Shown here: positions 11,795 to 33,930 of the stretch, piece by piece
Position numbering within the stretch: position 1 is the stretch's first letter
Layout of the letters: every line of letters starts with the position of its first letter
DNA from: a virus
DNA length: 64,000 nucleotides
Reading direction: 5' to 3' (one strand)
IMG/VR virus record: IMGVR_UViG_3300020057_001232
Span: 1-64,000 of that record
The notes under the pieces: model-generated
What the model saw: only the letters and a program-made list of their open reading frames with translations
Told to the model about the DNA's origin: nothing
Database searches by the model: none
Translations under genes and position numbers: made by a program

Positions 11795-14700
11795 TTACCG
11801 TTCGTAAGACACCAGATCAAGAGCCTTAGAAGGCTTACGCACCGAAGGTACTGGTGCCGATTTCCACATCTCATCGGCTTGGTTCTCGATACTCGTCATG
11901 AGGGCATCTAAGCTCTTCCGACGCCCGTCCCACGGCGTCAGATCGCCGTACTTCAGACCGATCTCAAACTCCATCTCAATGGGGATAGCGAGGTTACAAT
12001 TCCAGTGGTCTTCGATGTACTTCTGCATATCCGCAACGAAGCACTGCTTCATAATCGGAAGTATCAGCCGCACGTCCTCTAACGGTGCTTGGACAAGGCA
12101 GGAGTCGTGGACGATGTTTTGAACTAGCCACCGGTCTTCAAGGTTATTGTCGAAGATATGCTGCATGAACGTAAACATGCCGATAGTGCCCGCATCTGAG
12201 CTTTGACCTTGGATCGAGCTGTTCATTGCCTTGCGGTCGGCATCAGTCTGAAACTTCCATTCGTTGAGGCTAAAGAGGTGATCTAGACGACGACGGCGAC
12301 CCATGAAGGTCTCGACGTAGCCTTTCTCTTTCGCAAGCTTTGGGATCTCTTTTAGATAAGTCTCAAGGTCAGGGAACGCCGAGAAGTAGGCTTTCATCTT
12401 CTCTTCCCCTTCCTCCGGCGACCATCCATTGCGTTGGCATAAAGTCTTCACGGTCATACCGAAAAGAAGCCCAAAAGTTATGCAATTTTTAGATGTTACG
12501 CCACCCGCAGTAAACGTGTGCGACGAGTCCGCAACCTCGATATCATATACTTTCTGTCTCTCCTCTTTCACTACTTTGCGAGTGACCGGAGCGAGGTACG
12601 CCTTGGTTTTGTAAAGCCAGTTAATGTCGTTGGCGACCTCGTTTCCTTCTTCCTCAGACCAAGCCTTTAGAGCAGCAAGGACGTATAGATTCTTGTCGAG
12701 CCAGTTATAGGTGATCTCAGTCAAACCGTTAGTAGTGATGCGAGTTCCAAACTTTACCTTCTCGTCGCCGATCTTAAAATATGTCCCTCGGCAGTCTGTC
12801 TTGTACTTCTCGCGCAGTCGGCGGAGTAATGCGTCTAAGCCGTAAATACCATCAAAACTACGGCAGTCGCTGACTGCCAATGCTTTCGTCTGTTTATTTG
12901 CGGAGACAAAACCTACGGTGCGTGCGAAGACGGCGGCATCGCGCACTCGCAGCCTAAGACCATAGTAGGTCCGTACTTCGCGCCCTACGGGGGTCGTGTG
13001 CTCCTCGGAGAAGAGGACGCTTACCATACCAAGATTGAAAAGAAGCTGCTGAATGTCCGTCATCAGCTTTTTAGATGCCGACATAACCACTACAGCATTG
13101 TTTTTGACTGTGCCGTCGCCCTCGAAGTAGGCACGCAGGAAGTTAATCACCTCTTCGCGTGTGGAGCGAAAAATGATGTCAGGCACACTCTTAGTAGAGG
13201 AGTAGCTCTTCTCTAATCCGACATGCTCAAGGTAGCGTCCAACCTTTGAAGGCAGTCTGCCAATACTGTTACCAGAGTAGGAGTAGTGCCGGTACCGTAG
13301 CTGATATCCAAAACATGATTCAACACAGTGCTGAAAATCGGCTAGAAGCTCTTGCGAGCCTTCTCTACTTGCTGCAAAAATCCAGTTCTGAGTATCGCCT
13401 TCAGCAACCATGTAGCCTAAGATACGAGCCAGAGCGGGGCTCATTTTCGTTGGGAGCTTTGGAACGTTCGCGTGGTGACGACTCCCCAACAAGGACTTGA
13501 GGCGTTTCTCAACTTGAGCCTCACTCTGAAGCGGCGTACCTGGGTTAAGTTTTTTGTAATCGTCGGTCGTCAGGTTATGGACCCTAAGATGCTGGTTTAG
13601 ATTGCCAAACTGTCCATCACAGATCCTGCAAAATACAGTCTCTGAAAAAAAGGTCTTTGGAGTAAGCTCCGCAATTTCCGGTGAAGTCTCCGCCCAAAGA
13701 CCTCCTTCGCGAGGAATTACTAGAAGATCGCCTTCCCTGATATCCTTCAGAGTAACTTCCGTAAGAGCGCAGTCGCGCCAAACGATGAGAGGATGATCGG
13801 CGTCTCCCTCAAGTGTGTTACCTAGCTCTGTCTCAATAACTACAGTGCTGTTCACCCACTTATGGTTCACGGCTAAAATGTCGGCGATGCCGTTGCGCGA
13901 CTTCACTTGCATACCAGCAAGCATCTGCACCCACTTCGAGTCGTCTTTGTCCCCAACAAGGTCTTCGATCTTTAGGACCCCTTTAGACGTGTAGAGAAGG
14001 GTTGAGCCTACGAGGCATTTAGCTGCTTGTCTCATTTCTTTAGATACCTTCTCCGCAGGCATCCCAAACATCAAACTAGCCGTTCGACGGTGAAGGTCGG
14101 CAAGCAAACCTGCCGCTGCAAAGTCTCCATCCGAGATCGAGTCGTCGTTGATCGCAGCCTCAATGAGCTTGGCGGATTCACTGAAGATGGAGATCAAGTT
14201 CTTGTCTTGGCTGAAAAGAGCTGCCCAACGGACTTCAGCGGTCTTGTAGTCACCTTGGATAAGACAGGTTCCGTTTGGAAACCGCATCGACGGCGGCTCC
14301 GCTTGGAACATGTTTTTCACCTCTTTAGCTAGCTTGATCTTACCTGCGGGGAGCTGCTGCAAGTTTGGATTTGAGCCGGAGTTGTGTATGCATATTTCAT
14401 TAGCTATGAAGTTGTGCTCGTCTTCGACCTCTAAGTCATAAACATTTACAGGCACATCTAGATACTCAATTTTAGTAACGATATGATTGCGTCGGATACC
14501 GTAAAATTCAAAAAGCGTCTTAAGTTTGCGGAAACCAATTTTGAGCCGTCTAGCCCCAGTATCAATGTCTGCGACTCGGCTAGCTTTAGCTATTACTCCA
14601 CGAGATAGGTAACCGTAGTCGCTGTACCTAAGTGCGACCGCTTTAAGATCCACACCAACATCTGAGCATTTTTTCTTAAATGTGGCGAAATCAGTTACGT

Positions 14701-17416
14701 GACTGTGTTCCACAGCATAAACTGGTCGTCCTTTAGAATAGGCTAGAGATTTTAAAATTTGCCATTTGGTAACTCTCTTGAACATGCCGTGGTTTTCACC
14801 GTGAAGTGCGTTCCTATCCGCAAGATGAGCCATCCGCAAATAGCCAAGCCTTTTCTCGACATACTCAGGATTTTGTGCCCGCTCCAGCATATGCTCTGCG
14901 GCGTGTGCGGCGTGTGCGGCGGCTGTCATACCTTGAAGGTTTTCAACTGCGTTATTAAGTTTATTACCGTCGATGTGATGCACATGCTCAGGCATGTCAC
15001 CATGGACTTCTCGGTAGATCAACCTGTGTTCTCTAATTTCCCGATCTCTCGAATGTAAACGCCCGTAGCCTGATGTTGTCGATCTTCCTAGAGCTAGTAA
15101 TGACTGGTTGACCACTAGATCTTTAGCTTGGACATAAGAACCGTCGATAAGACGGACTCTGTGCTCGGGTGTCACATCGAGATAGCCGACATGCTTCCTT
15201 CCCTGACCTAACCAGTGAATCCGTACAACCTTCTTAAACCCTGTTTTTCCAGCCCAAAGAACCTTCTTAACCCTAAGGTTAAGCTGATCGTCGTAGCAGT
15301 AGACTAGATCACCTTCCTTGATCGACTCTATAGGAAGCCCCTTTGGTGCTTTGGATACGTCTCTTACGCAGTCGATCAACGTGCCTTCGGCTACGCAAAG
15401 CCTGCCCGTGGCTGTCCCATGCAGGTTGTAGGAGGCACGAACCCGAGAGTCTATGCTGTCGCCTTTCGGGTTACGGATGAAACCTTCCATGCTGTCAAGG
15501 TACGCCGTGCCTAGCTTTTTCAGCTTGCGGTATTCGCTTTCAAGCTTGAGTGCATTGTCTTTAAAGATGGGCGTGCCGTCTTTGTCGTCCATCCGAACCG
15601 GAACGCCGTAGACGGAAGCATATTTCTCTTTGATCGTCGGCGTGTCTTTGTAGACAACGGGCAAGGCGTAGTTCTCTAAAAACCCAGAGTCGAGTTTGCC
15701 TTTTTTGGTCTTCTTCGAGAACTTAATCGGCTGAAGCTGCAAGAAATCTAAAAAGAACAACTCTTGTTGGTCTTGCTTGTTGAGGTCAAGCTTAGGTAGT
15801 TCTTCTTCCTCGTCGAAGCTCCAAAGGCTTTCATACTCGGCTGCGTTCTTAGACTTGCCACCAATCTCTTCTTTGTAACGCTTACGAAAGTCTAAAACTT
15901 CCGGCAGAGTTTGCAGATCGTTTTCAATTTCTTTAATACGGTTCCAAATCGGAGAGTCTTCGCTTTGGAGGTAGCCGAGGTGCTCAGGCTTTACCCAAAG
16001 ACCGTTGCATTCCATGACGGCGACGGCACGGCTAGCAGGGAAGTAGTAATGCTTCTGAAATTTGCGGAGAAGCTTTGCAGCTCCCTCAGGCTGAATCACA
16101 GATAGCTCTTGTTCTTTACGAGCTACAGCTTTGGTCAAGATCGTATCGGAGCCGCCGTAAGTATAAAGCTGATCGAGACGCAGCTCTTCAAGCGACCCGT
16201 CGCCTCTCTTCTCAAGGCTTTCTTCCTCAAAGAGGAAGTTAAACATTTCGACGCCTAAAGTTTTAAGCGAAAACGGTGAGCCTGAAAGCTGACCGGCTAA
16301 CTCTTTCCGGTTCTCGTCAAGCCAGTGCATCCCTAGCATCGTACACCACCACGGAATGCAGCCTTTCTTCTTAGGTATGATCTTCATCAACCCGTAGAGG
16401 ACCGAAAGGTCGAACTTGATGTTGTGACCAATGAACCACAAGATGTTGGTCTCTTCCGGCGTCGAGTTGATTAAGCCATTCATCCGCTCGGCGAGCTGCT
16501 TCTTCAGAACCGGATCGGCAAAGAGTGGCTTTTCCCTATGCTCGATAGGAAAGACCGTAGCCTCGCCGTGGACATGGCTAAATTGCCACGTCAAAAATTT
16601 GTTATTCCACACACGGTTCAGTCCTTCGGTTTCGGTGTCGAAGGCAACTGTGGACTTTTCTTTCAAACCACGCCGCAAAAAGTCTAAGTAGTCAAAAACA
16701 TCTTTGACTGTTTCAAGCGGGGTGATCTTTTTTATCTCGATTGGTTCAGGTAAAACTCTTTTCAACCTTGGCATGAAGTGGCTAGCCAAGTGTAAAGCGT
16801 CTTCCTTTAAGAAGCGGACGCTAGCGGGGGCTGCTACGACGGTTCCCGGTGCAATAGCCACAAAGACTTTAGTCGTGAAGCCACCTTCAAAGATCATCGT
16901 GAAGGTTTTACCACGTAAGTTTTGAAAGTTTTGCTCTTGCTTAGGCGGTAAGTCTTCCTTGTTAATGGCGTGATCGTACAAATTTTTGAAAACAGAAGCC
17001 CCAAATGCACACAACATTTCGGGTTGGTGAAAGAGAAGCTCCTTTAGAAAATGTGAAAAACACAAGTTAGCTTCGAAGACTGTCGGCTTTGCCTTTTCTA
17101 AGTATGCCCGGAAGGTTTTTGTGACATAATAAGGAACACTCAAAGCCGTTAGCTCTATGAAACTCGCAATGAAGACTTCGTGCATGATTTTGCCTGCGAT
17201 GTGGCAGGCAGGCGTGCGGAGGTCGGACTCGTCTTGGGTCACGTTGTCGGTGACGAAGAAGATCCGTGCTTTCGGACGACCAGTGAGGAAACCTTGCGAC
17301 GGCACCTGCTTACAGGTTTGAAACTGAGGGCAGTTGTCCTGTTTGCAGTTCGGCTCGCTAGTGGAGTGCTTCTTGCGAAGGCTTTTTGCAAATTCTTCAA
17401 CTTTCCAGTTAGCCAT
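11795..17416 (-). CDS. Family A DNA polymerase with N-terminal UDG-like domain, 3'-5' exonuclease and two inteins
   Basis: Exo motifs DTETEGL and HNIKFD; TATGRL|SGSNPNLQQ; motif A DYKTAEVR; motif B RQAAK|CITFGLLFG; motif C VHDS; Cys-containing UDG-4-like N-terminus. Confidence 0.9.
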   Translation of the reverse strand: MANWKVEEFAKSLRKKHSTSEPNCKQDNCPQFQTCKQVPSQGFLTGRPKARIFFVTDNVTQDESDLRTPACHIAGKIMHEVFIASFIELTALSVPYYVTKTFRAYLEKAKPTVFEANLCFSHFLKELLFHQPEMLCAFGASVFKNLYDHAINKEDLPPKQEQNFQNLRGKTFTMIFEGGFTTKVFVAIAPGTVVAAPASVRFLKEDALHLASHFMPRLKRVLPEPIEIKKITPLETVKDVFDYLDFLRRGLKEKSTVAFDTETEGLNRVWNNKFLTWQFSHVHGEATVFPIEHREKPLFADPVLKKQLAERMNGLINSTPEETNILWFIGHNIKFDLSVLYGLMKIIPKKKGCIPWWCTMLGMHWLDENRKELAGQLSGSPFSLKTLGVEMFNFLFEEESLEKRGDGSLEELRLDQLYTYGGSDTILTKAVARKEQELSVIQPEGAAKLLRKFQKHYYFPASRAVAVMECNGLWVKPEHLGYLQSEDSPIWNRIKEIENDLQTLPEVLDFRKRYKEEIGGKSKNAAEYESLWSFDEEEELPKLDLNKQDQQELFFLDFLQLQPIKFSKKTKKGKLDSGFLENYALPVVYKDTPTIKEKYASVYGVPVRMDDKDGTPIFKDNALKLESEYRKLKKLGTAYLDSMEGFIRNPKGDSIDSRVRASYNLHGTATGRLCVAEGTLIDCVRDVSKAPKGLPIESIKEGDLVYCYDDQLNLRVKKVLWAGKTGFKKVVRIHWLGQGRKHVGYLDVTPEHRVRLIDGSYVQAKDLVVNQSLLALGRSTTSGYGRLHSRDREIREHRLIYREVHGDMPEHVHHIDGNKLNNAVENLQGMTAAAHAAHAAEHMLERAQNPEYVEKRLGYLRMAHLADRNALHGENHGMFKRVTKWQILKSLAYSKGRPVYAVEHSHVTDFATFKKKCSDVGVDLKAVALRYSDYGYLSRGVIAKASRVADIDTGARRLKIGFRKLKTLFEFYGIRRNHIVTKIEYLDVPVNVYDLEVEDEHNFIANEICIHNSGSNPNLQQLPAGKIKLAKEVKNMFQAEPPSMRFPNGTCLIQGDYKTAEVRWAALFSQDKNLISIFSESAKLIEAAINDDSISDGDFAAAGLLADLHRRTASLMFGMPAEKVSKEMRQAAKCLVGSTLLYTSKGVLKIEDLVGDKDDSKWVQMLAGMQVKSRNGIADILAVNHKWVNSTVVIETELGNTLEGDADHPLIVWRDCALTEVTLKDIREGDLLVIPREGGLWAETSPEIAELTPKTFFSETVFCRICDGQFGNLNQHLRVHNLTTDDYKKLNPGTPLQSEAQVEKRLKSLLGSRHHANVPKLPTKMSPALARILGYMVAEGDTQNWIFAASREGSQELLADFQHCVESCFGYQLRYRHYSYSGNSIGRLPSKVGRYLEHVGLEKSYSSTKSVPDIIFRSTREEVINFLRAYFEGDGTVKNNAVVVMSASKKLMTDIQQLLFNLGMVSVLFSEEHTTPVGREVRTYYGLRLRVRDAAVFARTVGFVSANKQTKALAVSDCRSFDGIYGLDALLRRLREKYKTDCRGTYFKIGDEKVKFGTRITTNGLTEITYNWLDKNLYVLAALKAWSEEEGNEVANDINWLYKTKAYLAPVTRKVVKEERQKVYDIEVADSSHTFTAGGVTSKNCITFGLLFGMTVKTLCQRNGWSPEEGEEKMKAYFSAFPDLETYLKEIPKLAKEKGYVETFMGRRRRLDHLFSLNEWKFQTDADRKAMNSSIQGQSSDAGTIGMFTFMQHIFDNNLEDRWLVQNIVHDSCLVQAPLEDVRLILPIMKQCFVADMQKYIEDHWNCNLAIPIEMEFEIGLKYGDLTPWDGRRKSLDALMTSIENQADEMWKSAPVPSVRKPSKALDLVSYER
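12485..14017 (-). mobile_element. Intein 2 in the DNA polymerase (LAGLIDADG type, with a Zn-finger insert)
   Basis: Begins CLVGSTL, ends GVTSKN before Cys; LGYMVAEGD and FLRAYFEGDG blocks; CRIC...HLRVH insert. Confidence 0.85.
14381..15397 (-). mobile_element. Intein 1 in the DNA polymerase (HNH endonuclease type)
   Basis: Begins CVAEGTL, ends VYDLEV..EHNF...IHN before Ser; HHIDGNKLNN HNH motif. Confidence 0.88.
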
Positions 17417-17821: not shown

Positions 17822-20482
17822 ATGCGTAAGTGGACGCACTACTTCCCTTTCCCTGAATTTCGTCCACATCAAGAAGAGACCCTCTTTCGCATAATTGATG
17901 CCTTAGAGAAGAAGCGTTTCGTTATCCTGCAAGCACCCTGCGGCTGCCACGCCAAAGGCACCCCCATTCTTCTCTACGACGGCAGCCTCAAAGCTGTAGA
18001 AGAGATCGTCGTCGGCGACGTTTTAGTCGGTCCTGACAGCACCCCAAGAAAGGTTCTAGCTCTCCACCGTGGTCGAGATGTTATGGCTAAGATCACGCCT
18101 CTCAAGGGCGAGCCTTTCGTCGTTAATCAAGGACATATCCTTTCGCTACAGCGGTACGGGATGAAAACCGACAGAAAACGCCGTGCAGATTGGGGCGGAG
18201 ATAACAGAGTTACAAACATCTCTGTTAAAGACTATCTACAAGAAAGCAACAATTTTAAGTACGTCAATAAGCTTTACCGTGTACCTGTTACGCACTGGAC
18301 ACCGGCTGCTCTTCCAATTCCACCTTATCTACTTGGTGTCTGGTTAGGTGACGGAACTTCTAACAAACCCGAAATAACAAATGCAGACGACGAAGTTCTA
18401 AGTGCATGGTCGGACTTTGGGGAAAGTTGGGGCTTATCACCTAAACGTGTATTGAACACGGCAAACTGTCCGCAGATTTATTTAAGTAAGGAGGACGCCC
18501 CGGTCAACAAGCTAGTGCAAACTTTAAAGTCTTTGCAAGTTTGGAAAAACAAACACATACCAGGGGCTTACCTCACCGCCTCAACTGAACAGCGACTAGA
18601 ACTACTTGCAGGTCTTATAGACACTGATGGTCACTGTAGTAGTAACACTTTCGACTTTATCTCAAGCAAGCCAGCACTAGCCGATGGTGTCGTTTTCCTG
18701 GCTCGCTCTCTAGGCTTGGCTGCATATTTAAAAATATGCCAAAAGCACTACGTAAAGGATGGTGTTAGAAGTGTTCCGAAAACGTACTACAGGGTCTCCA
18801 TAAGCGGTAACCGCGATATAGTTCCTTGCCGAGTCCTTCGTAAAACCGCTACTGAGCGGCTCCAACAAAAGAGTGTTCTCAGAACATCTTTCACCATCGA
18901 GTTGCTCCCAGAAGATGATTACTTCGGCTTTGAAGTAGACGGCGACCACCTCTACCTAATGGGTGATTTCACTGTCACACATAACAGCGGCAAAAGCTCG
19001 ACGGCGTTAGGCATCGCCCACTACTACGACTCGGCTTACTTAGCCACCGTTCAAAAGCAGCTCCAAGACCAATACGTAGAAGAATACCGAGAGGACATCG
19101 CCCTCCTTAAAGGTAAGTCTAACTATGTCTGTTCGCATTTCTCCAAAGCCCGGCGAGAAGTCAACTGTGCGTCGGCGTCGTGCGGTCTTAACGTCAGCGG
19201 GCGTAACGCCAAACTAGTGCGGGAAAACTGTGAAAGTAAGGGCTCGTGTGCTTACATCAACGCTAAAAACCACGCCATCGCTCACCCTAGGACGCTGCTT
19301 AACTTCAGCAACCTCTTAGCCTTCAGCAATATCGTGTTGGAAAACGGCGAAAAAATCTTACCGTTCCGCAAGATCTTGATCGTGGACGAAGGGCACAAGC
19401 TTGAAAGCGAGCTTTACAGCTTTGCAGAAATCAGCTTCACCGCTGGTATGTACGAAAAAGTGCAGGCGTTGTCAGAAGAACTCCACATGCAAATCCAAGA
19501 GTGGAGCAAGATAGGCACCGTCGAAAACTTGCCATCGCTGCCCTCCGTTAAGGTCTTTGCCGAAAACCTTTTAAAAGAAATCAACGAGTATCTTACCTCC
19601 GTAGGAGGCGTAGACGACCTCCCCGCCGACGAAGTGCGGCAAGTTCCTACGCTTAGGCAAGAAGCTGAGAAGATTTCGACCTTTTTAGCCGACGTAAGCA
19701 GCAAGACCGGCAACTGGAAGGTCAAACCTGCGGTCGGCGGCATCTCGGTCTGCCCTCTGCACGTTGACCATCTCCATCAAATGGCTTTCTCTACGGCTGA
19801 AAAAGTCTTGATAATGTCAGGCACAATTTTAGACCCTAAAACATTCGCCAAAAACTTAGGCATTAAAGAAGAAGACTACGAATACATCGAAGTGCCTTCT
19901 ACATTTCCACCGGAAAACAACATCATCATGAGCTACCCCGTAGGTAGCATGGCTCATCATAGCATCAAAGAGACGTTTCCACGGCTTGTCAAAGCTTTGA
20001 AGTTAATCGCCAAAAAGCACGCAAACGAAAAAGGTGTCATCCAAACTTTCAATTACCGCATCTCCGAGATGTTGCAAAAAGAGTTCGGCAAAGATCCCCG
20101 CTTTCTATTCCATACAAGAGAGACTGATAAAGCTGCGCTGTTAGATATTCATTTTAGATCCAAAGAACCCACGGTATTAGTCGGTCCTGGGTTTAAAGAA
20201 GGTGTAGACTTCAAAGGTCACCTTTGTACGTGGCAAGCTCTCTGCAAAATGCCGTGCCCTGACCTCAAAGATCCCATCGTAGCTGCAAGGCAACGCCTAG
20301 AAGCTGCTTGGTACGATCTTTTGGTGGCTATGGATATTATGCAGATGCTAGGTAGACCAGTGCGGTCTGAAACTGACAAAGCGTTTCAATACGTTTTAGA
20401 CAGTTACTTTCCAATCTTCTATAAAAGAAACCGTAGGCTCTTCCCTAAAGAATTGCAAAAGTCTGTCTTCATAGCGGAGTAG
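17822..20482 (+). CDS. DinG/XPD-family SF2 helicase with intein
   Basis: Q motif FRPHQ; Walker A APCG|SGKS; Fe-S Cys residues; DEGH; MSGT; EGVDF; QMLGRPVRSETD. Confidence 0.88.
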   Translation: MRKWTHYFPFPEFRPHQEETLFRIIDALEKKRFVILQAPCGCHAKGTPILLYDGSLKAVEEIVVGDVLVGPDSTPRKVLALHRGRDVMAKITPLKGEPFVVNQGHILSLQRYGMKTDRKRRADWGGDNRVTNISVKDYLQESNNFKYVNKLYRVPVTHWTPAALPIPPYLLGVWLGDGTSNKPEITNADDEVLSAWSDFGESWGLSPKRVLNTANCPQIYLSKEDAPVNKLVQTLKSLQVWKNKHIPGAYLTASTEQRLELLAGLIDTDGHCSSNTFDFISSKPALADGVVFLARSLGLAAYLKICQKHYVKDGVRSVPKTYYRVSISGNRDIVPCRVLRKTATERLQQKSVLRTSFTIELLPEDDYFGFEVDGDHLYLMGDFTVTHNSGKSSTALGIAHYYDSAYLATVQKQLQDQYVEEYREDIALLKGKSNYVCSHFSKARREVNCASASCGLNVSGRNAKLVRENCESKGSCAYINAKNHAIAHPRTLLNFSNLLAFSNIVLENGEKILPFRKILIVDEGHKLESELYSFAEISFTAGMYEKVQALSEELHMQIQEWSKIGTVENLPSLPSVKVFAENLLKEINEYLTSVGGVDDLPADEVRQVPTLRQEAEKISTFLADVSSKTGNWKVKPAVGGISVCPLHVDHLHQMAFSTAEKVLIMSGTILDPKTFAKNLGIKEEDYEYIEVPSTFPPENNIIMSYPVGSMAHHSIKETFPRLVKALKLIAKKHANEKGVIQTFNYRISEMLQKEFGKDPRFLFHTRETDKAALLDIHFRSKEPTVLVGPGFKEGVDFKGHLCTWQALCKMPCPDLKDPIVAARQRLEAAWYDLLVAMDIMQMLGRPVRSETDKAFQYVLDSYFPIFYKRNRRLFPKELQKSVFIAE
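17945..18985 (+). mobile_element. Intein in the helicase P-loop (LAGLIDADG type)
   Basis: CHAKGT...LGVWLGDG...LLAGLIDTDG...VTHN before Ser. Confidence 0.9.
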
Positions 20483-21044: not shown

Positions 21045-21476
21045 TTGATCGTCCCCACAACCCGCTACGTCATCAAAGTCGAAGCGAAACAGACAATTCT
21101 CCGTAGCATCGCTAAAGGTCTGCTTAAAAAAGCAGCAGTCTCTTTGCTTGCTGTTGTTTTGTCCATGGCGGCGTCTAAGGCTCGGGCATCGGACTTCAAT
21201 TCGAAGCTAAGCACTTACGCCAAAGAGACTACGGCTACCATCTACGAAGAGGGTAACTACAAAGAGATCAAGATCGAAACATCCGGCACGAAAGACAAAT
21301 TCGATGTCGTAGTCAAGAATTTGGCGACTGAAGCCTTCATTACGCTCACGATCATCCCCGGCACCAAGACCAAAATCACGGAGAAAGCCTCCGGTGAAAT
21401 AGACTGGAAGACACGCCTTTGGGCAGATGCTCTTAAGACCTCTTGGGAAGACTCCGCTAAGGAGTTCGCCAAGTGA
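21045..21476 (+). CDS. Hypothetical protein
   Basis: 143-aa ORF overlapping the next start (GTGA). Confidence 0.5.
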   Translation: MIVPTTRYVIKVEAKQTILRSIAKGLLKKAAVSLLAVVLSMAASKARASDFNSKLSTYAKETTATIYEEGNYKEIKIETSGTKDKFDVVVKNLATEAFITLTIIPGTKTKITEKASGEIDWKTRLWADALKTSWEDSAKEFAK

Positions 21477-22954
21477 GGCTAGTTAAGCAGAAATACACCG
21501 TCGTCACGGCGGGGGTCTCAAGCGAAGTCATGGAGTCCATGTTCAAGTCTTACGAAGGCGAAGCGAAAGACTACGCAAGTAAGCTGCTCAAGGCTTGGAT
21601 ACCGGTCCTCTCCAATAAAGAGCAAGTCAAATGGGTTGCCAAAAGACTGCGGGCTTTCTGCGACCGTAAGTTTTTCAAAAAAGAAAACCCGCTCGCCGAC
21701 GACTACGTAGCACTCTACGATCTCTTCGGCAAATTCAGGGACACCAAAAAAGATGCCGAAGAGAGTAAGTTCAAAACTCTCAAAGCTCTGAAGTTCGCAC
21801 CCGACGCTACCCCAGAAGAAGCCGTCAATGCGATCAAGCAGGCTTTCAACGATGCCTTCGACAGAAGCAAGTCCAGTTTAGTGGACACTTCGTCAGGCGA
21901 GCCCGAGACCCTCATCAAATTCCCGAACGGCTACGAGTGGCAGATCTTGCCTGATTCTTCTTGTGGAAACGAAGGTGAAGCAATGCGTCATTGTGGGAAT
22001 TCGGATGGACATCCAGACGACAAGATGCTGTCGTTACGCGAGCCTGTGAAAAAAGGCGGCAAGCTTCTTTGGCGTCCGCATCTCACGTTTATCGTGAACA
22101 ACGGGTTGCTTACGCAGATGAAGGGCAAAGCAAATCAAAAGCCTGACAAGAAGTACCATCCATACATTATTGCCCTTTTGAAAGACCCCATCGTCGAAGG
22201 CATTATCGGTGGCGGCTTTGATCCGCATAATAACTTCGCGCTCAACGATCTCGCCAAAGAGACGCAGAAGAAGTTGATTTCTGAAAAGCCAGCGCTTGAT
22301 GACCTAGATGAGCACGAGTGGTCAGAAGGCAATATCAACATGCTTAAAGACTACATCCCAAAGATGTTCCGTCACAGTGGCAAGGGTGACGACCTGAAAG
22401 CCGAGTCCTACGATGACGCTCTTGACGAGTTTGTGCTCTTCGAGTCCACACTTGGCGAGAATTTCAAAGCTATGGTCCCACTCCTTGAAAGAGGAGATCT
22501 TGACCAAACGATGTTCGACCGGGGAGGGAAACAAGACGCCGACTTCATGGATAAGTACGTACAGACGGAGATCTTACCAAAAATCCCCAAAGCCGCTCTC
22601 ATGAGATTGTTCAAGAAGTATAAGGCGACTGACATCAAAGATCTGTCTAATAAACTAGAACCAGACTTTCTACGTTCGCTTTGGGAGGCAGGATTTAAAC
22701 TTGAGGCGTTCCACTCCGCAGTTCGTCGTTTTTTCAAGCATACCCCTTACCTTGAAGTAGATGAGCCTCTAACTGGAAAGTCCAAACTGCGGCTCGCCAT
22801 AGGCTTGGACTCGGTGATAGATGCGATGCAATCCAATAAGCACCACGTAAAGCCCACTCTCAAAACGTTTTGGGACATTGCCACATTAGAAGGCATCACC
22901 GACAAGTTCATTGACCTAGTAAAGGTCAGAGAATTTTTGGCTCACGGTGCTTGA
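21473..22954 (+). CDS. PcfJ-like domain protein, paralog of 34566-36164
   Basis: EGEAMRHCGN...LSLREP...QMKGKANQKP, shared with the paralog. Confidence 0.6.
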   Translation: MRLVKQKYTVVTAGVSSEVMESMFKSYEGEAKDYASKLLKAWIPVLSNKEQVKWVAKRLRAFCDRKFFKKENPLADDYVALYDLFGKFRDTKKDAEESKFKTLKALKFAPDATPEEAVNAIKQAFNDAFDRSKSSLVDTSSGEPETLIKFPNGYEWQILPDSSCGNEGEAMRHCGNSDGHPDDKMLSLREPVKKGGKLLWRPHLTFIVNNGLLTQMKGKANQKPDKKYHPYIIALLKDPIVEGIIGGGFDPHNNFALNDLAKETQKKLISEKPALDDLDEHEWSEGNINMLKDYIPKMFRHSGKGDDLKAESYDDALDEFVLFESTLGENFKAMVPLLERGDLDQTMFDRGGKQDADFMDKYVQTEILPKIPKAALMRLFKKYKATDIKDLSNKLEPDFLRSLWEAGFKLEAFHSAVRRFFKHTPYLEVDEPLTGKSKLRLAIGLDSVIDAMQSNKHHVKPTLKTFWDIATLEGITDKFIDLVKVREFLAHGA

Positions 22955-22979
22955 CTCCAATTCGGTTCTCTGGTGTAAT
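22951..22979 (+). promoter_or_regulatory. sigma70-like promoter for the ncRNA-RT unit
   Basis: TTGACT-N17-TGTAAT with a TG extension. Confidence 0.45.
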
Positions 22980-23004
22980 CACAGTACAGCAATCAAACAC
23001 ATCT

Positions 23005-23115
23005 TGGGTGTCGGGAAGAGGATAGAGACTTGCAGCGGTAGCGCTCGCCTAAGAAGCGACCCTACTTATGCCTCTCTCGCTTTAGCAGATCACTAAAGCA
23101 CCTTCCCGGCACCCA
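23005..23115 (+). ncRNA. Structured RNA upstream of the RT
   Basis: TGGGTGTCGGGAAG pairs with CTTCCCGGCACCCA (14 bp, one G-U); internal hairpins TCGC/GCGA and GCTTTAG/CTAAAGC. Confidence 0.6.
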
Positions 23116-23142
23116 TCTCCACTTTTAAGAAGCCATCGTCCA

Positions 23143-26124
23143 ATGTCTTCCGTTTTAGATATTTCTAACTCTCCCCATGGACGCCTAACTTCAGTCTCTT
23201 CGCTCTACCTCATCCTCACTAACCTTTTGACGCACGTCTTCAACGGAAACGACCAACGTCGTGCGCTGCCTGTTAGGTGGTATTTGTGGACTAGGCTCGA
23301 AGAGCATCCTGCCGTAAGAGCCAACGGTCGGAGACCTCTTTCTGAAGTCTTCGACAAACTTCACGTAGACACTCAAAAACTCGTCGTGAATATGATTATG
23401 CGCACTCCTTACGCATCGAGTTGGGGACTCATGGGCAAAGACCCTGACCCCGCTCTAGTCCCAGCTTTGAAGGCTTTCACGGAGGAAAAGAAGAAGAGCT
23501 TCCACGACGAAGGCTTTCCGACCCTACTTAAAGAATTTGCAGCTTCACATCCGCAGTTTTTTGTTGCTTTGAAAGACAAAAAGCAAGACGACGCCAAGAT
23601 GCAGCAGTGGGCTCTTAAAGAAATGGCTACCCATGGCTACGAACTGTTCTCTGTGAACAAACAAGCCGAAAAGTTGATCCCAATCATCCACGCCTTGCTT
23701 GATCTCAACCGTTTGACGATCCCTAACTTGGCGCGCAAAGATACTAGAGACCATCACTTGAGCCTCTTCAAGAGCGCCTTCATGGGCGTCGAAGTGGCGT
23801 TGCCGTGCTGCTTTGTGGAAGAGATGGCGACGAAGCATCTTGAGTTCAAGGACTTCTTTTCGACGGCAATTGTTTTTCAACTTCTCTACGAAGAGACTCA
23901 AGGCTCTTACTACTTGCCCAATCTGAAAAAGATAGGCTGGAATTTGGGCTTCCGTGGGTCACCACATGAGAACTACGACTACCTCCACCGTTACAACGGT
24001 CTCTTAGGTACTGATCCTATTTTCAGCTACCCGCAGATCGGCTACGAGCGCGTCGGTGAAGTTACCTCTGAGTTCTCCGCGCCGCCGAAGGTCAAGACTC
24101 CTAATGGTCCAACGCCTAAGTTCACTCAGAAGGCGACCATCTATCAGAACGGTACACAGGGTACGCACTCCTACCGCAACGTCGAAGCCCGCAAGATGGG
24201 GACCTACTTCGTCGATCTTGAGCACTTAAAACACCGTTTCAAAACAACCGAGATGTTGTCGTCCTACGATTTAGAGCTGCCGAACCTACCGCGCCAAATC
24301 CGTTTCATGTCGCCAATCAGTCAATATGATATGACGCTCAAGAACTCGGTTTTTAATGAGAAGGCACAACGTCGTGTTTTCTGTTCTCTACCTCAAAACC
24401 CTATCTTTAAGCCTGACACGTCGAAGTTTCAAAAGAGCATCGATAAGAGGTGGGAGCCGATCTTTGACCGCTACTTGGCTACCAACTTTTCGTTAGCTGG
24501 CTTAGCCGAAGTTGCCAAAGACGACTACACCCTATTCTACAAGCTGAAGCCTTCACTTGAAGCGTTCGCCAAAGTCTTAGCCAAAAAGAAGCAAGATCCA
24601 AATGCCCACGACTATGAAGTCACTACGAGCCGCCAGTTCGACACAGACGAAAGTCTCGACGAGCCTCATCACTACGAAGTAAGAGAGAAGCTCGAACGCT
24701 CCGACAAGAATCTCTATAGCCTATACCAAAGCTATTTACCGTCTTGGCTTGAAACCTTCTCCGACAAGACTAAGCTCAAAGAAGCCGCCTACGGCTTTTC
24801 ACCTATCAGAGTCTTCTTGGCTCAAGAACAACCAGGCAAAGGCAAACGTCGCACCTTATGCCAGTCGTCTATCGAGCAGAAACTCTTCGAAAAGATATCG
24901 AACAGGTTCTGCCAAGTGATCTTGCAAAAGATCAACATGGACCACTTAGACAATTCCATTTCTAATTACTTACCAGGGCAGTCAACCGCTCTATACACTA
25001 TGGAGCGGTTTAAGAAGTACGTCTCCAAAAGAGACGTGGACGTAGATGTCTTCAACCTAGATGTTAGGTCTTGCTTTGATTCTTTAAATTTGAAGCATAA
25101 GAATTTCTTAGAGTGTCTTGACCACGGGTTAGATAATGTTGGAGAGCTTCTCTCGCCAGAGGCTAGAAGCTTTTTAGAGTTGACGCTCAAAGGCTACCTC
25201 TACGGCAACTACGTAGAGACCAAGAAGTTCAAGTTCAAAGTCGATAAAGGAGTCAATCTAGAAGATGGAGCACTACCCACTGGCTTCGTTCTAGCTCCTA
25301 CCCTATGGCTGACCCTAACCTTGCCTTCGGTCGTCTCCCTAGCGAAGGATGTGGCTGCCAAGAAGGTTCTAGCGTTCGACCTCTGCGGTGATGACCTCTT
25401 TGGTCTATCGCCAGTAGGCTTATCGGCAGAAGACAAGACTGCCATCATCAAGCCCTACGTCGAGCTTGCACAGAAGCTCGACCTCAAGTTCCATTTCTTC
25501 AAAAACTACCGCGACGGCTTCTTGCCGATTGCGGAGAAGCACGTAGGTAAATTCAAGGACAACCCTTGGGTTGAGAAGTTTCCGTTGATGTCAGTGCCTC
25601 TCTACCACGCAGGAGCGATGCTCCACCGCCGCAGACTGGTGGAGACCGTAACTTCGTTCAACGACAACACAGCTATTCACAAAATCCGTATGGCTGTGGC
25701 AAAAAAGATCCGTGAAGGCGAGGCTCTCCTTACGGGAGCTAAGCTTGTTCTCTTCGGTGCTAGGTCTCCTACAATAGCTTTTGACCCTTATAAGTCGAAA
25801 GCCCTCAAAGTCGAGGAGGAGCAACCGTCACCCTTAGAGAGACGCCGAAAGACCATAGGAGACCTCCTTCACGGAGAACGCAAAGTGATTGTCTTCCACA
25901 AGCGCGACCGAAAACTAGTCTTGCAGAAGCACCCCAAGATCAAGTTCTTGTCCGACAACCGTATGCAAAAAGAAGCGAGGTTCAACATAATCAAGAACGA
26001 ACAAACCCATCGCCCGAAAACTGCCGAAAGTTCGGAAGCCCCCCAAGGGAGGGGGGAAGGGAAGGGGAGGGCATCCCCCCTATCAATACGTTTGTTCTGG
26101 GAAGTCCCAGAAGAAGTAGCATAA
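23143..26124 (+). CDS. Divergent reverse-transcriptase-fold protein with long N-terminal extension
   Basis: GKGKRRTL...QKL, LDVRSCFDSL, GALPTGFVLAP and LCGDDL occur in RT order and spacing. Confidence 0.75.
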   Translation: MSSVLDISNSPHGRLTSVSSLYLILTNLLTHVFNGNDQRRALPVRWYLWTRLEEHPAVRANGRRPLSEVFDKLHVDTQKLVVNMIMRTPYASSWGLMGKDPDPALVPALKAFTEEKKKSFHDEGFPTLLKEFAASHPQFFVALKDKKQDDAKMQQWALKEMATHGYELFSVNKQAEKLIPIIHALLDLNRLTIPNLARKDTRDHHLSLFKSAFMGVEVALPCCFVEEMATKHLEFKDFFSTAIVFQLLYEETQGSYYLPNLKKIGWNLGFRGSPHENYDYLHRYNGLLGTDPIFSYPQIGYERVGEVTSEFSAPPKVKTPNGPTPKFTQKATIYQNGTQGTHSYRNVEARKMGTYFVDLEHLKHRFKTTEMLSSYDLELPNLPRQIRFMSPISQYDMTLKNSVFNEKAQRRVFCSLPQNPIFKPDTSKFQKSIDKRWEPIFDRYLATNFSLAGLAEVAKDDYTLFYKLKPSLEAFAKVLAKKKQDPNAHDYEVTTSRQFDTDESLDEPHHYEVREKLERSDKNLYSLYQSYLPSWLETFSDKTKLKEAAYGFSPIRVFLAQEQPGKGKRRTLCQSSIEQKLFEKISNRFCQVILQKINMDHLDNSISNYLPGQSTALYTMERFKKYVSKRDVDVDVFNLDVRSCFDSLNLKHKNFLECLDHGLDNVGELLSPEARSFLELTLKGYLYGNYVETKKFKFKVDKGVNLEDGALPTGFVLAPTLWLTLTLPSVVSLAKDVAAKKVLAFDLCGDDLFGLSPVGLSAEDKTAIIKPYVELAQKLDLKFHFFKNYRDGFLPIAEKHVGKFKDNPWVEKFPLMSVPLYHAGAMLHRRRLVETVTSFNDNTAIHKIRMAVAKKIREGEALLTGAKLVLFGARSPTIAFDPYKSKALKVEEEQPSPLERRRKTIGDLLHGERKVIVFHKRDRKLVLQKHPKIKFLSDNRMQKEARFNIIKNEQTHRPKTAESSEAPQGRGEGKGRASPLSIRLFWEVPEEVA

Positions 26125-26169
26125 GCACCTTCCTGTGTATTACTCTTCCCCAATATCATTTAGGCAGGG

Positions 26170-27168
26170 GTGAACTACGTGCGGCGGGAGCGGCAAGATC
26201 TTACGGCGTCACAGCGCGATCAAATGCGGGGTATCCTTGAGGTATACGCAGAAGAAGTTGTTGAAGATGCTGCTGGTTGGAAGATCTGTTGCCCCTTCCA
26301 TAACGACAGCAGACCCTCTTGCACGGTCTTCTACGGCAGTGGGGTCTTTAGCTGTTTTTCATGCGGTGCTAAACAGAGCCCCGTCAAAGGTCTCATCAAG
26401 CTTGGCGTTCCCGAAGAGCACGTAAAAGACATCTTCGAAGTCAAAGAAGATGACTCCCAAATACGCCGTATCAAAAGCCTCCTCGAACTCGAAGAGCCAA
26501 CCCCGCCTAAGCAGCCGACCATAGGCATCATAGACAGAGAGCCGTGGGTACCCGGTTGGGCATTCCGTAAGATCCGCAGCGAGTTTCTACTTGAGCAACT
26601 AGATCTCAAACCCGAACTGGTACGGCTTTGGATTAGAAACAGACAGGGCAAGATCAACCAAGAGCGGTTCCAACGCCTGAGCCTTGCTTACACCGATCAT
26701 GCGCTCTTTCTCCGACTCAGCTCAGAGCAGAAAGTCAGAGTTTTCAACTCCCCAGGACTCCAACTCGCTGACCCCATCTTGCCCCCGTTTGGATTGCCGT
26801 CTTTCAAAGTGTCCAAAGCTCTAGCAGGCATCTTTATCGTAGAAGGTCCATACGATCTTCTACGCACAAGACAACATCTTTATGACTTAGGTATCAGTAA
26901 CCACTTCGCCGTCGTTGCATTGCTAGGAGTTAGCCAGTGGCAAAGTTTCTTAATAAAATATGAATTGAGACTACAATCGACCTGTGGTAATATCCCTTTA
27001 CTATTTGCCTTAGATAACGACGACGCAGGAAACGCTTTGCTTATCAAAGCACAGAAAGACCTTGCTAGATTGCAAGCCCCGTCCTTAGTCTTCCAGTACC
27101 CAGGAAAAGACCCTGGTGATCTGGATCTGCTTCCTTTTAAAAATTCTCTTTTAGATCTTGGATTTTGA
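26170..27168 (+). CDS. DnaG-type primase (CHC2 zinc finger + TOPRIM)
   Basis: CPFHND..PS...FSCFSCG; IVEGPYD; LDNDDAG; KDPGD. Confidence 0.82.
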   Translation: MNYVRRERQDLTASQRDQMRGILEVYAEEVVEDAAGWKICCPFHNDSRPSCTVFYGSGVFSCFSCGAKQSPVKGLIKLGVPEEHVKDIFEVKEDDSQIRRIKSLLELEEPTPPKQPTIGIIDREPWVPGWAFRKIRSEFLLEQLDLKPELVRLWIRNRQGKINQERFQRLSLAYTDHALFLRLSSEQKVRVFNSPGLQLADPILPPFGLPSFKVSKALAGIFIVEGPYDLLRTRQHLYDLGISNHFAVVALLGVSQWQSFLIKYELRLQSTCGNIPLLFALDNDDAGNALLIKAQKDLARLQAPSLVFQYPGKDPGDLDLLPFKNSLLDLGF

Positions 27169-33565: not shown

Positions 33566-33930
33566 CTTTACTCTCTTCCTTCTTTGTAATTCAACCATTT
33601 AAAATATCGGTGTTTGCACGCAGGACACTGATGACAGAACCCTTGTAGGTCGTAGGTCCACTCCCAGCGGTGTCCACACTTCAAACATAGGTATTTGTCG
33701 GTCTTTTGCTTCACTGACGACCACCAAAAACCCTAGCTAGTCCAAGTATACATATTACCAGTACGATTAGGACGCAGGTCTTTAGCATCGCCACCTCCTA
33801 AACTTTGGTCATCTCACTGTTTTTTTTGAGCTTTGTAAGGGTGTAGCGTGTCTTGTGGAGCAAAGTCAAGAAGTAATCTATACTGGTGGTAAATAACTCA
33901 CAGAGTCGAGATTTAGTCGTGGAGGTGTGG

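What the first reader, a model, noticed from the sequence alone, without database searches (positions are those of the whole stretch)
22951..26124. Large divergent reverse transcriptase (CGDD) with a cognate-looking structured ncRNA in a jumbo-type phage
Seen: the 993-aa ORF has RT blocks in order: GKGKRRTL (~aa 565), LDVRSCFD (~aa 640, aromatic steric-gate residue kept), LPTGFVLAP, and LCGDD (~aa 748) instead of YADD. About 550 aa of unrecognised sequence precede them. Directly upstream are a TTGACT-N17-TGTAAT promoter and a ~110-nt RNA (23005-23115) closed by a 14-bp inverted repeat with two internal hairpins. Known: an ncRNA with paired ends ahead of an RT is the layout of retrons (a1/a2 arms) and of several defence-associated RTs. 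However, the retron NAxxH and VTG signatures are missing, no group II intron domain V is visible, and GDD is more typical of viral RdRPs. Inference: a new ncRNA-templated RT class carried by a phage, with the N-terminal half acting as effector or protein primer, possibly for phage-phage competition or counter-defence.
Basis: partly seen in the sequence, partly recalled or inferred. Interest (0 to 1): 0.87.

Follow-up and report, generated by a model that had tools for sequence, protein, structure and literature searches.

The report
Rare RT-like polymerase beside phage primase
A large uncultured phage carries an intact gene for a very rare relative of reverse transcriptases that always sits among the phage's DNA-copying genes next to its primase, while the folded RNA in front of it is real but is not shared by related phages.

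Summary
The 993-aa ORF (23143-26124) is a real gene under purifying selection. With a 22-row alignment AlphaFold2 gives pLDDT 78. Residues 442-850 match reverse transcriptases first (R2, DRT2, LINE-1, DGR, group II intron RTs, Z 16-14.6) and viral RdRPs second (Z up to 11.8). All RT motifs are present. Motif C is xGDD in 22 of 22 members and the aromatic steric gate is kept in 22 of 22.

The family is tiny: 17 relatives among 1.84 billion representatives. It matches no retron, DRT or Abi model. The N-terminal 440 aa match nothing.

In every contig that reaches far enough, the gene lies in the phage replication module beside a DnaG-type primase, the only such primase found in either phage record searched.

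The upstream RNA (23005-23115) is strongly folded (z -4.75). No comparable element lies upstream of the four homologues checked. Two equally folded elements lie elsewhere in this window.

Best reading: a replication- or repair-linked RT-fold DNA polymerase, not a retron-like system. This scan found the same family before on other DNA (e1-5869344, e1-5869349).

The parts
22951..22979 (+). Promoter-like TTGACT-N17-TGTAAT, overlapping the stop codon of the upstream gene
   Evidence: Read. It does not pass the consensus scan (G at position 2 of the -10), and such sites are not enriched over shuffles. Function is inferred only.
23005..23115 (+). Structured RNA element: a 14-bp closing stem (one G-U pair) with two internal hairpins. 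Probably the 5' leader of the RT-like mRNA.
   Evidence: z -4.75; third of 8518 windows. In a related strain the changes lie in a hairpin loop (23053) and outside the fold (22998), none in a stem. No such element lies upstream of relatives.
23143..24462 (+). N-terminal domain (aa 1-440) of the RT-like protein: mostly helical plus a beta-rich part, with no known family
   Evidence: Model pLDDT is mostly 75-96. No hit in Pfam, PHROGs, PADLOC, NCBIfam or PDB sequences. The ESM Atlas gave no usable hit. The domain is conserved across the family.
24466..25692 (+). RT-type polymerase domain (aa 442-850). Motifs: RT1 GKGKRRTL 24835-24858, RT2a SNYLPGQS 24961-24984, A LDVRSCFD 25057-25080, B LPTGFVLAP 25273-25299, C LCGDD 25381-25395, D FHFFKNY 25489-25509, E YHAG 25603-25614.
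   Evidence: VIA-align Z is 16.0-12 to solved RTs over model 442-850 and Foldseek E is 1.6e-7 downward. Invariant residues are N638, D640, G714, G749, D750, D751, H784, K787, P819 and H822.
25693..26124 (+). Poorly conserved C-terminal tail, including a G-rich run at about 26040-26075
   Evidence: pLDDT is under 50 from aa 837. The tail does not align across the family. Contigs of public runs break at 26044-26078.
26170..27168 (+). DnaG-type primase (CHC2 zinc ribbon plus Toprim), the conserved neighbour of the RT-like gene
   Evidence: Pfam. Homologues lie downstream of the RT-like gene in L002, L003, L004, L005 and L007 and in G001. It is the only Toprim_2 match in G000 and in G001.
17822..20482 (+). 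Rad3/DinG-type helicase interrupted by an intein (context: replication module)
   Evidence: Pfam Helicase_C_2, Hom_end_hint and Hom_end. A homologue lies upstream in L002.
11795..17416 (-). Family A DNA polymerase with 3'-5' exonuclease and two inteins (context: replication module)
   Evidence: Pfam. PolA also lies next to the RT-like gene in L007 and about 3 kb from it in G001.

Best explanation
The ORF encodes an active polymerase of the reverse-transcriptase fold. It has fingers with an N-terminal extension, RT2a and RT3a insertions, and a palm with xGDD. A family-specific 440-aa N-terminal domain precedes the RT domain.

The gene is a lineage-wide component of the replication gene cluster of a small clade of uncultured large (jumbo-type) phages. 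It is inherited together with the phage's only DnaG-type primase.

The kept aromatic steric gate indicates that the enzyme makes DNA. I think it most likely acts on replication or repair intermediates. Examples are extending short RNA primers laid down by the neighbouring primase, or RNA-templated or gap-filling synthesis at breaks. I think it less likely that it makes a retron-style satellite DNA.

The folded RNA at 23005-23115 is most simply a phage-specific 5' leader (stability, processing or translation control) of this gene's mRNA.

Shown: the fold, the motifs, the rarity, the synteny, purifying selection and the stability of the RNA. Inferred: dNTP use, catalytic activity, the link to priming or repair, and the leader role.
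For: - Fold: the AF2 model has pLDDT 78.4 and pTM 0.68. RTs rank first in VIA-align (R2 16.0, DRT2 15.1, LINE-1 14.8, DGR 14.8, group II 14.6), above RdRPs (up to 11.8). Foldseek gives the same picture.
- Sequence: weak RVT_1 hits in 16 of 18 members and the generic PADLOC RT model in 20 of 22.
- Catalytic residues are invariant in 22 of 22 rows. The aromatic gate and xGDD are each in 22 of 22.
- Real gene: a related strain shows 9 synonymous against 4 non-synonymous codon changes.
- Synteny: a primase homologue lies downstream in 5 of the 6 metagenomic or viral loci L002-L007. The sixth, L006, ends after a clamp-loader gene.
- Specificity of the link: of the 80 loci kept from a primase-profile scan, only the 2 with a full-length primase at 35% identity or more (L009, L010) hold an RT-family gene. 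None of the other 78 does.
- PolA, helicase or clamp loader lie nearby in the window, L002, L006, L007 and G001.
- The primase is the only Toprim_2 match in G000 and in G001.
- Pairwise identities of the RT-like protein and of the primase rise and fall together (r 0.78 over 10 non-independent pairs of 5 phages).
- There are no DGR repeats and no group II intron or other Rfam RNA.
Against: - There is no biochemical or expression evidence of any kind.
- Synteny among related phages may be inherited gene order without a functional link.
- Other phage-borne RTs (UG27, AbiP2) are thought to act in conflicts, and RT plus DnaG-type primase pairs are described for Class 3 UG/Abi RTs UG6, UG24 and UG29 (PMC9226505, passages). 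The pairing therefore does not by itself mean replication.
- In G001 the gene is in at least five frame pieces with one in-frame TGA. That record's PolA also carries two in-frame TGA, so this is ambiguous.
- The stable RNA directly upstream remains compatible with a template role in this one phage.
- The thumb is poorly modelled (pLDDT under 50 from aa 837).
Confidence: 0.45

Rival explanations
1. Conflict system. The phage-borne RT makes non-genomic DNA, either untemplated and protein-primed or templated by an RNA. This would counter host defences or exclude competing phages, as is suspected for UG27 and AbiP2 and is known for bacterial DRTs.
For: - The structural neighbours include DRT2, DRT9, AbiK, AbiA and DRT4.
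- Phage-encoded UG27 with a candidate ncRNA, and RT plus DnaG-primase pairings in UG6, UG24 and UG29, are in print (PMC9226505).
- A large accessory domain is fused to the RT, as in many UG/Abi RTs.
Against: - No member matches any retron, DRT or Abi model in PADLOC at E up to 1 (0 of 22).
- The gene is not patchy. It is found with every close primase and sits inside the replication cluster, not in a variable island.
- No hydrolase or other effector gene is conserved beside it.
- The accessory domain is N-terminal here, not C-terminal.
Confidence: 0.3
2. The RNA at 23005-23115 is the cognate template or scaffold of the RT, and the enzyme copies part of it in the manner of a retron or DRT2.
For: - The RNA is real and exceptionally stable, favours the + strand, and lies directly upstream on the same strand.
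- The two changes near it in a related strain spare the stems.
- DRT2 and DRT9, which use upstream ncRNAs, are among the best structural matches.
Against: - No comparable fold lies upstream of the homologues in the 4 loci checked (best z -3.0, MFE no lower than about -24 kcal/mol).
- There is no sequence similarity, no copy in IMG/VR and no Rfam hit.
- Two other elements of the same style lie far from any RT.
- At 111 nt it is short for a retron ncRNA, and the long hairpin precedes the short one. The typical retron size and hairpin order are recalled.
- NAxxH and VTG occur at scattered, non-aligned positions in only 3 and 4 of 22 members and not in the window's protein.
Confidence: 0.1
3. A domesticated or decaying remnant of a mobile retroelement (group II intron or non-LTR type) with no present role for the phage.
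For: - The closest folds are group II intron and non-LTR RTs, and RT2a and RT3a-type insertions are present.
- An 11-nt direct repeat flanks the gene.
- A TnpB fragment lies 2 kb away.
Against: - There is no intron RNA, and no maturase or endonuclease domain was detected.
- The catalytic residues are invariant and selection is purifying.
- The same position is kept across phages only 22-35% identical.
- The 11-nt repeat is at chance level: three exact repeats of 11-12 nt occur in 3.35 kb, and my own arithmetic expects about 1.3.
Confidence: 0.05
4. The enzyme is functionally an RNA polymerase (RdRP-like), as the GDD motif might suggest.
For: - Motif C is GDD.
- The nearest neighbours by ESM Atlas features are viral RdRP clusters, at score 0.92 but with only 116-133 of 256 shared features.
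- HCV NS5B and other RdRPs appear among the fold matches.
Against: - Motif A is the RT type, D-x4-[FY]-[DEP], with an aromatic gate in 22 of 22 members. Motif B is P-x-G-x3-S-P, not SGxxxT. The RT and RdRP motif consensuses used here are recalled.
- Only RVT_1 was matched by 16 of 18 members, and no RdRP Pfam family was matched at E up to 1.
- RTs outrank RdRPs by about 4 Z units.
- The Atlas feature counts are below the level typical of true family hits.
Confidence: 0.05

Closest known systems
Group II intron and non-LTR retroelement RTs (GsI-IIC RT, R2, LINE-1 ORF2p RT domain)
   Same: These are the best or near-best fold matches over aa 442-850 (R2 Z 16.0, LINE-1 14.8, group II 14.6). Motifs RT1-7 are present, with an N-terminal extension and RT2a and RT3a-like insertions.
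   Different: There is no intron RNA and no maturase or endonuclease domain. Motif C is xGDD instead of YxDD. A 440-aa N-terminal domain of unknown family is present. The gene sits at a fixed place in a phage replication module.
Class 2 UG/Abi RTs with an upstream ncRNA (DRT2/UG2, DRT9/UG28)
   Same: High structural similarity (DRT2 Z 15.1, DRT9 14.0). This phage has a structured RNA directly upstream.
   Different: No PADLOC DRT model is matched. The RNA is not shared by relatives. The protein is twice as long, and the context is phage replication, not a defence island.
UG27, a phage-encoded Class 2 UG/Abi RT with a predicted three-stem-loop ncRNA (Mestre et al. 2022, PMC9226505; section 29 read in full, other passages)
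   Same: An RT of unknown role carried by uncultured tailed phages, with a candidate structured RNA nearby.
   Different: UG27 comes with two partner protein clusters and occurs in gut phages in thousands of copies. This family has about 20 known sequences, from microbial-mat and other environmental metagenomes, and its partner is a primase.
Class 3 UG/Abi RTs linked to DnaG-type primases (UG6, UG24, UG29; PMC9226505, passages)
   Same: An RT is associated with a CHC2 zinc finger plus Toprim primase, as a separate gene (UG6, UG24) or fused (UG29).
   Different: Those carry or neighbour C-N hydrolase or phosphohydrolase domains. None was detected here. Here the primase is the phage's only one, and no PADLOC DRT model is matched.
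G2L4, a group II intron-like RT domesticated for DNA repair (PDB 9d4s, 9d5x)
   Same: It is the top Foldseek hit (E 1.6e-7). It is an RT working on DNA transactions and not as a retroelement; this role is recalled, as only the PDB titles were seen.
   Different: It scores only Z 10.8 in VIA-align, has no N-terminal 440-aa domain and is cellular, not phage-borne.
Retrons (Ec86/Eco1, Eco2, Eco7, Eco8)
   Same: An RNA with paired ends lies ahead of an RT on the same strand. Fold matches are at Z 9.7-12.3.
   Different: No aligned NAxxH or VTG motif, no retron model hit, no conserved ncRNA and no effector gene.

Membership tests
Reverse transcriptase / RT-like right-hand polymerase superfamily | Fingers-palm fold with motifs A, B and C in order and catalytic Asp residues | tested here: met
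   The model matches solved RTs at Z 16.0-12 over aa 442-850 and Foldseek E 1.6e-7. D640, D750 and D751 are invariant.
Reverse transcriptase / RT-like right-hand polymerase superfamily | Pfam RVT_1 above the gathering score | tested here: not met
   The window's protein scores 14.8 bits against a cut-off of 29.6 (E 0.023). 16 of 18 members hit weakly, best E 2.2e-5.
Reverse transcriptase / RT-like right-hand polymerase superfamily | RNA-templated DNA synthesis | not testable with these tools
   This needs an enzyme assay. The aromatic gate in 22 of 22 members only suggests dNTP use.
Retron | RT with NAxxH and VTG signatures | tested here: not met
Neither occurs in the window's protein. Elsewhere they occur at non-aligned positions (NAxxH in 3 of 22, VTG in 4 of 22).
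Retron | Conserved msr-msd ncRNA with a1/a2 arms next to the RT | tested here: not met
   A 14-bp-closed RNA exists in this window only. None lies upstream of the homologues in L002, L003, L004 and L007.
Retron | Match to retron RT profiles | tested here: not met
   0 of 22 members match a PADLOC retron model at E up to 1.
UG/Abi defence RTs (DRT1-9, AbiA, AbiK, AbiP2) | Match to group profiles | tested here: not met
   0 of 22 members match any DRT or Abi model of PADLOC-DB 2.0.0. Only the generic Cas-associated RT model is hit (20 of 22). Which UG groups that library covers was not checked, and the paper's supplementary tables were closed.
UG/Abi defence RTs (DRT1-9, AbiA, AbiK, AbiP2) | Placement inside the UG/Abi clade of an RT phylogeny | not tested
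   No reference RT sequences could be obtained.
UG27 (phage-borne) | RT together with protein clusters 337 and 346 and an ncRNA between the RT and cluster 336 | not tested
   The defining profiles are in supplements that I could not see. The neighbours here are a primase and an unknown 493-aa protein.
Class 3 UG/Abi with DnaG-type primase (UG6, UG24, UG29) | C-N hydrolase or phosphohydrolase domain fused or adjacent | tested here: not met
   No such Pfam domain is in any of 18 members or in the neighbours scanned.
Class 3 UG/Abi with DnaG-type primase (UG6, UG24, UG29) | DnaG-type primase fused or adjacent | tested here: met
   Primase at 26170-27168, conserved in relatives.
Group II intron RT | Intron RNA domains around the ORF, and a maturase (X) domain | tested here: not met
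   No Rfam match in 20-30 kb at E up to 1 apart from a chance GABA3 hit, and none at gathering score in the window. No maturase Pfam hit.
Diversity-generating retroelement | Template and variable repeat pair near the RT | tested here: not met
   No direct repeat of 40 nt or more in 12000-36000.
Viral RdRP | Motif A D-x4-D and motif B SGxxxT; RdRP Pfam families | tested here: not met
   Motifs A and B are of the RT type. No RdRP family is hit at E up to 1. The motif definitions are recalled.

The most novel reading that the evidence does not exclude
An RT-fold polymerase is a core replisome or repair factor of a jumbo-phage lineage. It would work hand in hand with the phage's DnaG-type primase, for instance as a Pol-alpha-like enzyme that extends RNA primers with DNA, or as an RNA-templated patching enzyme. 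That would be a reverse-transcriptase relative recruited into the replication of a double-stranded DNA virus. In this particular phage the structured leader could additionally serve as its RNA partner.
Probability: 0.3. Interest if true: 0.9.

Novelty: new variant of a known kind. Interest (0 to 1): 0.62.

Why it matters
Prokaryotic RT relatives known so far are retroelements, defence enzymes or, rarely, repair enzymes. This would be a lineage fixed inside a phage replication module, co-inherited with the only primase, with an RdRP-like GDD catalytic loop on an RT scaffold and a 440-aa domain of unknown family. It would widen the known uses of the RT fold, and it is a tractable biochemical target. 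It also bears on how RT and RdRP palms relate. The negative result matters too: a stable RNA ahead of an RT is not enough to call a retron-like system.

Tried and rejected
- Single-sequence AlphaFold2 failed (pLDDT 32).
- Word-based homologue searches returned only the query or one extra member.
- PDB sequence searches with the protein and with the profile found nothing at E up to 10.
- tblastn against 50,697 phage records found nothing at E up to 1.
- The nearest isolated-phage primase is only 27% identical (Vibrio phage phi 3).
- The single-protein primase scan of IMG/VR found no relative.
The ESM Atlas gave no usable hit for it, so nothing can be said about whether its fold is new.
- An RT phylogeny was not possible: no reference RT sequences could be brought in.
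- Complex prediction of the N-terminal domain with the primase returned 'no answer' (score 0.00). This is no evidence either way.
- No RNA holder was listed among the public runs, so expression and transcript ends could not be examined. The runs that hold the DNA are microbial-mat metagenomes kept as contigs.
- I considered the 11-nt direct repeat flanking the gene (AAGCACCTTCC at 23096 and 26123) as a target-site duplication and rejected it as chance.
- Downstream intergenic regions of the homologues show scattered hairpins (L007 z -4.95, L004 z -3.3) but no common element.
- The fragmentation of the gene in G001 cannot be read as decay, because that record's PolA is also interrupted.
- Literature searches listed no paper on an xGDD RT-like family in phage replication modules. 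These four searches are the only basis for calling it undescribed. The supplements of PMC9226505 (group profiles and tables) were closed and could bear on that claim.

Full report
THE OBSERVATION

The ORF 23143..26124 (+) is open for 993 codons. It carries the reported motifs at the reported places:
- GKGKRRTL, aa 565-572
- LDVRSCFD, aa 639-646
- LPTGFVLAP, aa 711-719
- LCGDD, aa 747-751

The inverted repeat 23005-23018 / 23102-23115 is 14 nt long with one mismatch. That mismatch is a G-U pair on the + strand. The fold has this closing stem and two internal hairpins at -52.5 kcal/mol. Its z-score is -4.75, and none of 200 shuffles folds as well. The opposite strand is less exceptional (z -2.89). 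Among 8518 sliding 120-nt windows of the 64 kb, both strands, this is the third most structured locus after correction for G+C.

The promoter-like TTGACT-N17-TGTAAT is present at 22951-22979. It has G at the second position of the -10 hexamer, so the consensus scan does not list it. Promoter-like sites in the region are no commoner than in shuffles (9 found, 9.1 expected).

IS THE GENE REAL?

Contigs of a related strain (run X5) differ from the window at 14 positions inside the ORF. They affect 13 codons, 9 synonymously and 4 not. Another run shows a net 3-nt, in-frame deletion. This is the pattern of a gene under purifying selection.

WHAT THE PROTEIN IS

Sequence libraries barely see it:
- Pfam RVT_1 at E 0.023, below the cut-off
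- no meaningful match in PHROGs (one chance-level hit, E 0.42, to a family of unknown function) and none in PADLOC or NCBIfam
- no PDB sequence match at E up to 10, with the protein or with the family profile
- no match in 50,697 phage records

An exhaustive HMMER search of 1.84 billion representatives found 17 relatives, 12 of them at E up to 1e-30. A word-based search added one more. The family is therefore very rare.

In the alignment the invariant residues are N638, D640, G714, G749, D750, D751, H784, K787, P819 and H822. These correspond to motifs A, B, C, D and E of an RT-type palm. Across the family:
- 16 of 18 members hit RVT_1 weakly.
- 20 of 22 hit PADLOC's generic Cas-associated RT model, and none hits a retron, DRT or Abi model.
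- All 22 have xGDD in motif C and none has YxDD.
- All 22 keep an aromatic residue at the steric-gate place of motif A.

The single-sequence model failed (pLDDT 32). With the 22-row alignment, AlphaFold2 gave pLDDT 78.4 and pTM 0.68 for aa 1-870.

Foldseek against the PDB puts these first, at E 1.6e-7 to about 3e-5: G2L4, DRT2, DRT9, GsI-IIC RT, retrons, LINE-1 ORF2p, R2 and DGR RT. HCV NS5B is mixed in.

The Foldseek-independent VIA-align search of 48,161 chains gives:
- R2: Z 16.0
- DRT2: 15.1
- LINE-1: 14.8
- DGR RT: 14.8
- group II intron RT: 14.6
- DRT9: 14.0
- best RdRP (VSV L): 11.8
- AbiK: 11.1
- AbiA: 10.9
- G2L4: 10.8

All of these align to model residues about 442-850. BFVD gives a mixture of phage and giant-virus RTs and RNA-virus RdRPs. 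ESM Atlas features for aa 540-870 point to RdRP clusters at 0.92, but with only 116-133 of 256 shared features. The tool's own guidance treats that as a lead only.

The domain is thus an RT-type right-hand polymerase. It is roughly equidistant from group II, non-LTR, DGR and Class 2 UG RTs, with an RdRP-like GDD loop.

The first 440 residues are confidently modelled, mostly helical with a beta-rich part. They have no match by any sequence method. I could not search them separately by structure, so I make no claim about whether their fold is new.

CONTEXT

The window is the first 64 kb of a 118-kb virus record with 49% estimated completeness. The gene lies in a replication cluster:
- family A DNA polymerase with two inteins, 11795-17416, minus strand
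- Rad3/DinG-type helicase with an intein, 17822-20482
- two small ORFs
- a 493-aa protein of no family
- the RT-like gene
- 45 nt later, a DnaG-type primase, 26170-27168

Related loci came from IMG/VR and JGI metagenomes. A primase homologue (33-46% identity by tblastn) lies downstream of the RT-like gene in L002, L003, L004, L005 and L007. It is adjacent in three of these and about 3.4 kb away in L002 and L003. L006 ends after a clamp-loader gene. L007 has PolA divergently upstream, and L002 has the helicase homologue upstream.

I then scanned IMG/VR with a primase profile and kept 80 loci. An HMM of the RT-like family was run over all six frames of every locus held, 88 in all. Among the 80 primase loci it hit only L009, which is the L002 contig, and L010. 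It hit none of the other 78. Those 78 have primase matches that are partial or at most 28% identical.

L010 belongs to a 236-kb record, G001, at 87% completeness. There the RT-like gene is in at least five frame pieces with one in-frame TGA. That record's PolA also has two in-frame TGA and a second frame piece. I read this as assembly quality or recoding, not as specific decay.

In G000 and in G001 the neighbouring primase is the only Toprim_2 match. G001 has a DnaB-type helicase elsewhere. No RVT_1-type RT was found in either record. That search also missed the RT-like gene itself, so it would detect only canonical RTs.

Pairwise identities of the RT-like proteins (22-40%) and of the primases (31-46%) track each other: r is 0.78 over 10 pairs of 5 phages, and the pairs are not independent.

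The gene therefore behaves as a long-standing member of the replication cluster of this phage clade, not as a patchy accessory gene.

THE RNA

I found no sequence similarity to the flanks of any homologue (blastn-short and nhmmer). I found no comparably stable fold in the regions upstream of the gene in L002, L003, L004 and L007. The best z there is -3.0, and no MFE is below about -24 kcal/mol, against -50 here. Downstream gaps show unrelated hairpins. A pattern for the two arms finds no copy in IMG/VR. Rfam finds nothing.

Within this window there are two other multi-hairpin elements closed by long stems: 5731-5850 (z -4.93) and about 650-790 on the minus strand (z -6.79). Neither is near an RT. 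Other first-stage notes on this genome also list several structured RNAs (I did not check them).

In strain X5 the only changes in or near the element are G>A plus one inserted A at 23053, in a hairpin loop, and C>A at 22998, outside the fold. That is compatible with a conserved structure, but it is far too little for covariation.

The element is therefore real. 'Cognate template of the RT' is not supported. A phage-specific 5' leader of the mRNA is the more economical reading.

OTHER READINGS TESTED
- There is no DGR-type repeat of 40 nt or more within 12-36 kb.
- There is no group II intron RNA.
- The 11-nt repeat that brackets the gene, a lead from note e1-6164012, is one of three exact 11-12-nt repeats in 3.35 kb. 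My own arithmetic expects about 1.3 by chance. The gene occupies the same place in distant relatives, so a recent insertion is unlikely.
- A complex prediction of the N-terminal domain with the primase gave no answer and counts neither way.

COMPARISON WITH WHAT IS KNOWN

Of Mestre et al. 2022 (PMC9226505) I read section 29 in full and passages elsewhere. The paper describes UG27, a Class 2 UG/Abi RT carried by thousands of gut phages with a predicted three-stem-loop ncRNA. It also describes Class 3 groups UG6, UG24 and UG29, which are linked or fused to DnaG-type primases and to C-N hydrolase or phosphohydrolase domains. Phage-borne RTs of unknown role and RT-primase pairings are therefore both precedented.

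This family differs from them in these ways:
- It matches none of the defence RT profiles at hand.
- Its accessory domain is N-terminal.
- It has xGDD in motif C.
- It lacks a hydrolase.
- It is paired with the phage's only primase inside the replication cluster.

Of the DRT7, DRT9, DRT10 and DRT1 papers I saw only listings and abstract openings. The crAss epsilon and jumbo-phage papers turned out not to be relevant (passages). Four literature searches listed nothing on this family. Supplements were closed.

The scan has met this family before on other DNA (e1-5869344 and e1-5869349, the 907-aa member). Those follow-ups reached the same reading. My tests were run before I saw them.

VERDICT

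Best explanation (0.45): a replication- or repair-linked RT-fold DNA polymerase that works in the neighbourhood of the primase.

Main rival (0.30): a conflict enzyme that makes non-genomic DNA.

Novelty: new variant of a known kind. Interest: 0.62.

Noticed in passing
window 5731-5850 (+) and about 650-790 (-): Two further multi-hairpin RNA-like elements closed by long stems (z -4.93 and -6.79). They are the two most structured loci of the window. The first is intergenic between minus-strand genes, and the second lies at a gene junction.
   Followed up: partly
window 3115-3185 (+): ARAGORN calls a tRNA with anticodon CTA (labelled Pyl), which would be an amber-suppressor-like tRNA. Rfam's tRNA model does not reach its gathering score there. 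The region is among the more structured windows.
   Followed up: partly
window 11795-17416 (-) and 17822-20482 (+): The DNA polymerase carries two inteins (one with HNH, one with LAGLIDADG). The helicase carries one intein with a homing endonuclease.
   Followed up: no
window 28100-28393 (+): A 97-aa ORF matches only the Cas12f1-like/TnpB TNB zinc-ribbon domain (E 5.9e-12). It looks like a TnpB remnant 2 kb downstream of the primase.
   Followed up: partly
window 26040-26075 (+): A G-rich run between C tracts lies in the non-conserved 3' end of the RT-like ORF. Contigs of public runs break or are skipped there (26044-26078).
   Followed up: no
window 23096-23106 and 26123-26133: An exact 11-nt direct repeat, AAGCACCTTCC, lies in the 3' arm of the RNA and across the stop codon of the ORF. 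It was judged to be at chance level.
   Followed up: yes
G001 (record of L010): 78053-81198 (-) and 84197-85009 (+): In this 236-kb relative both the RT-like gene and PolA contain in-frame TGA codons and frame changes. The cause could be stop-codon recoding, a poor assembly or a decaying provirus.
   Followed up: partly
window 5882-9070 (-), 38452-39711 (-), 48577-51688, 58922-60259 (+): Auxiliary genes typical of large phages: NAMPT plus an NMNAT-NUDIX fusion (NAD salvage), TerC, an AAA_5 ATPase next to a CobT-like VWA protein, and a GH114 glycosidase. An M14 carboxypeptidase lies at 31372-32532 and a ClpP-like protease at 33886-34569.
   Followed up: no
L007 7891-8011: The 121-nt gap between the RT-like gene and the primase in this distant relative folds into three hairpins (z -4.95). 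It is unrelated in sequence to the window's element.
   Followed up: no
window 21473-22954 (+): The 493-aa protein directly upstream has no Pfam family and no homologue in the related loci. It is specific to this phage.
   Followed up: partly
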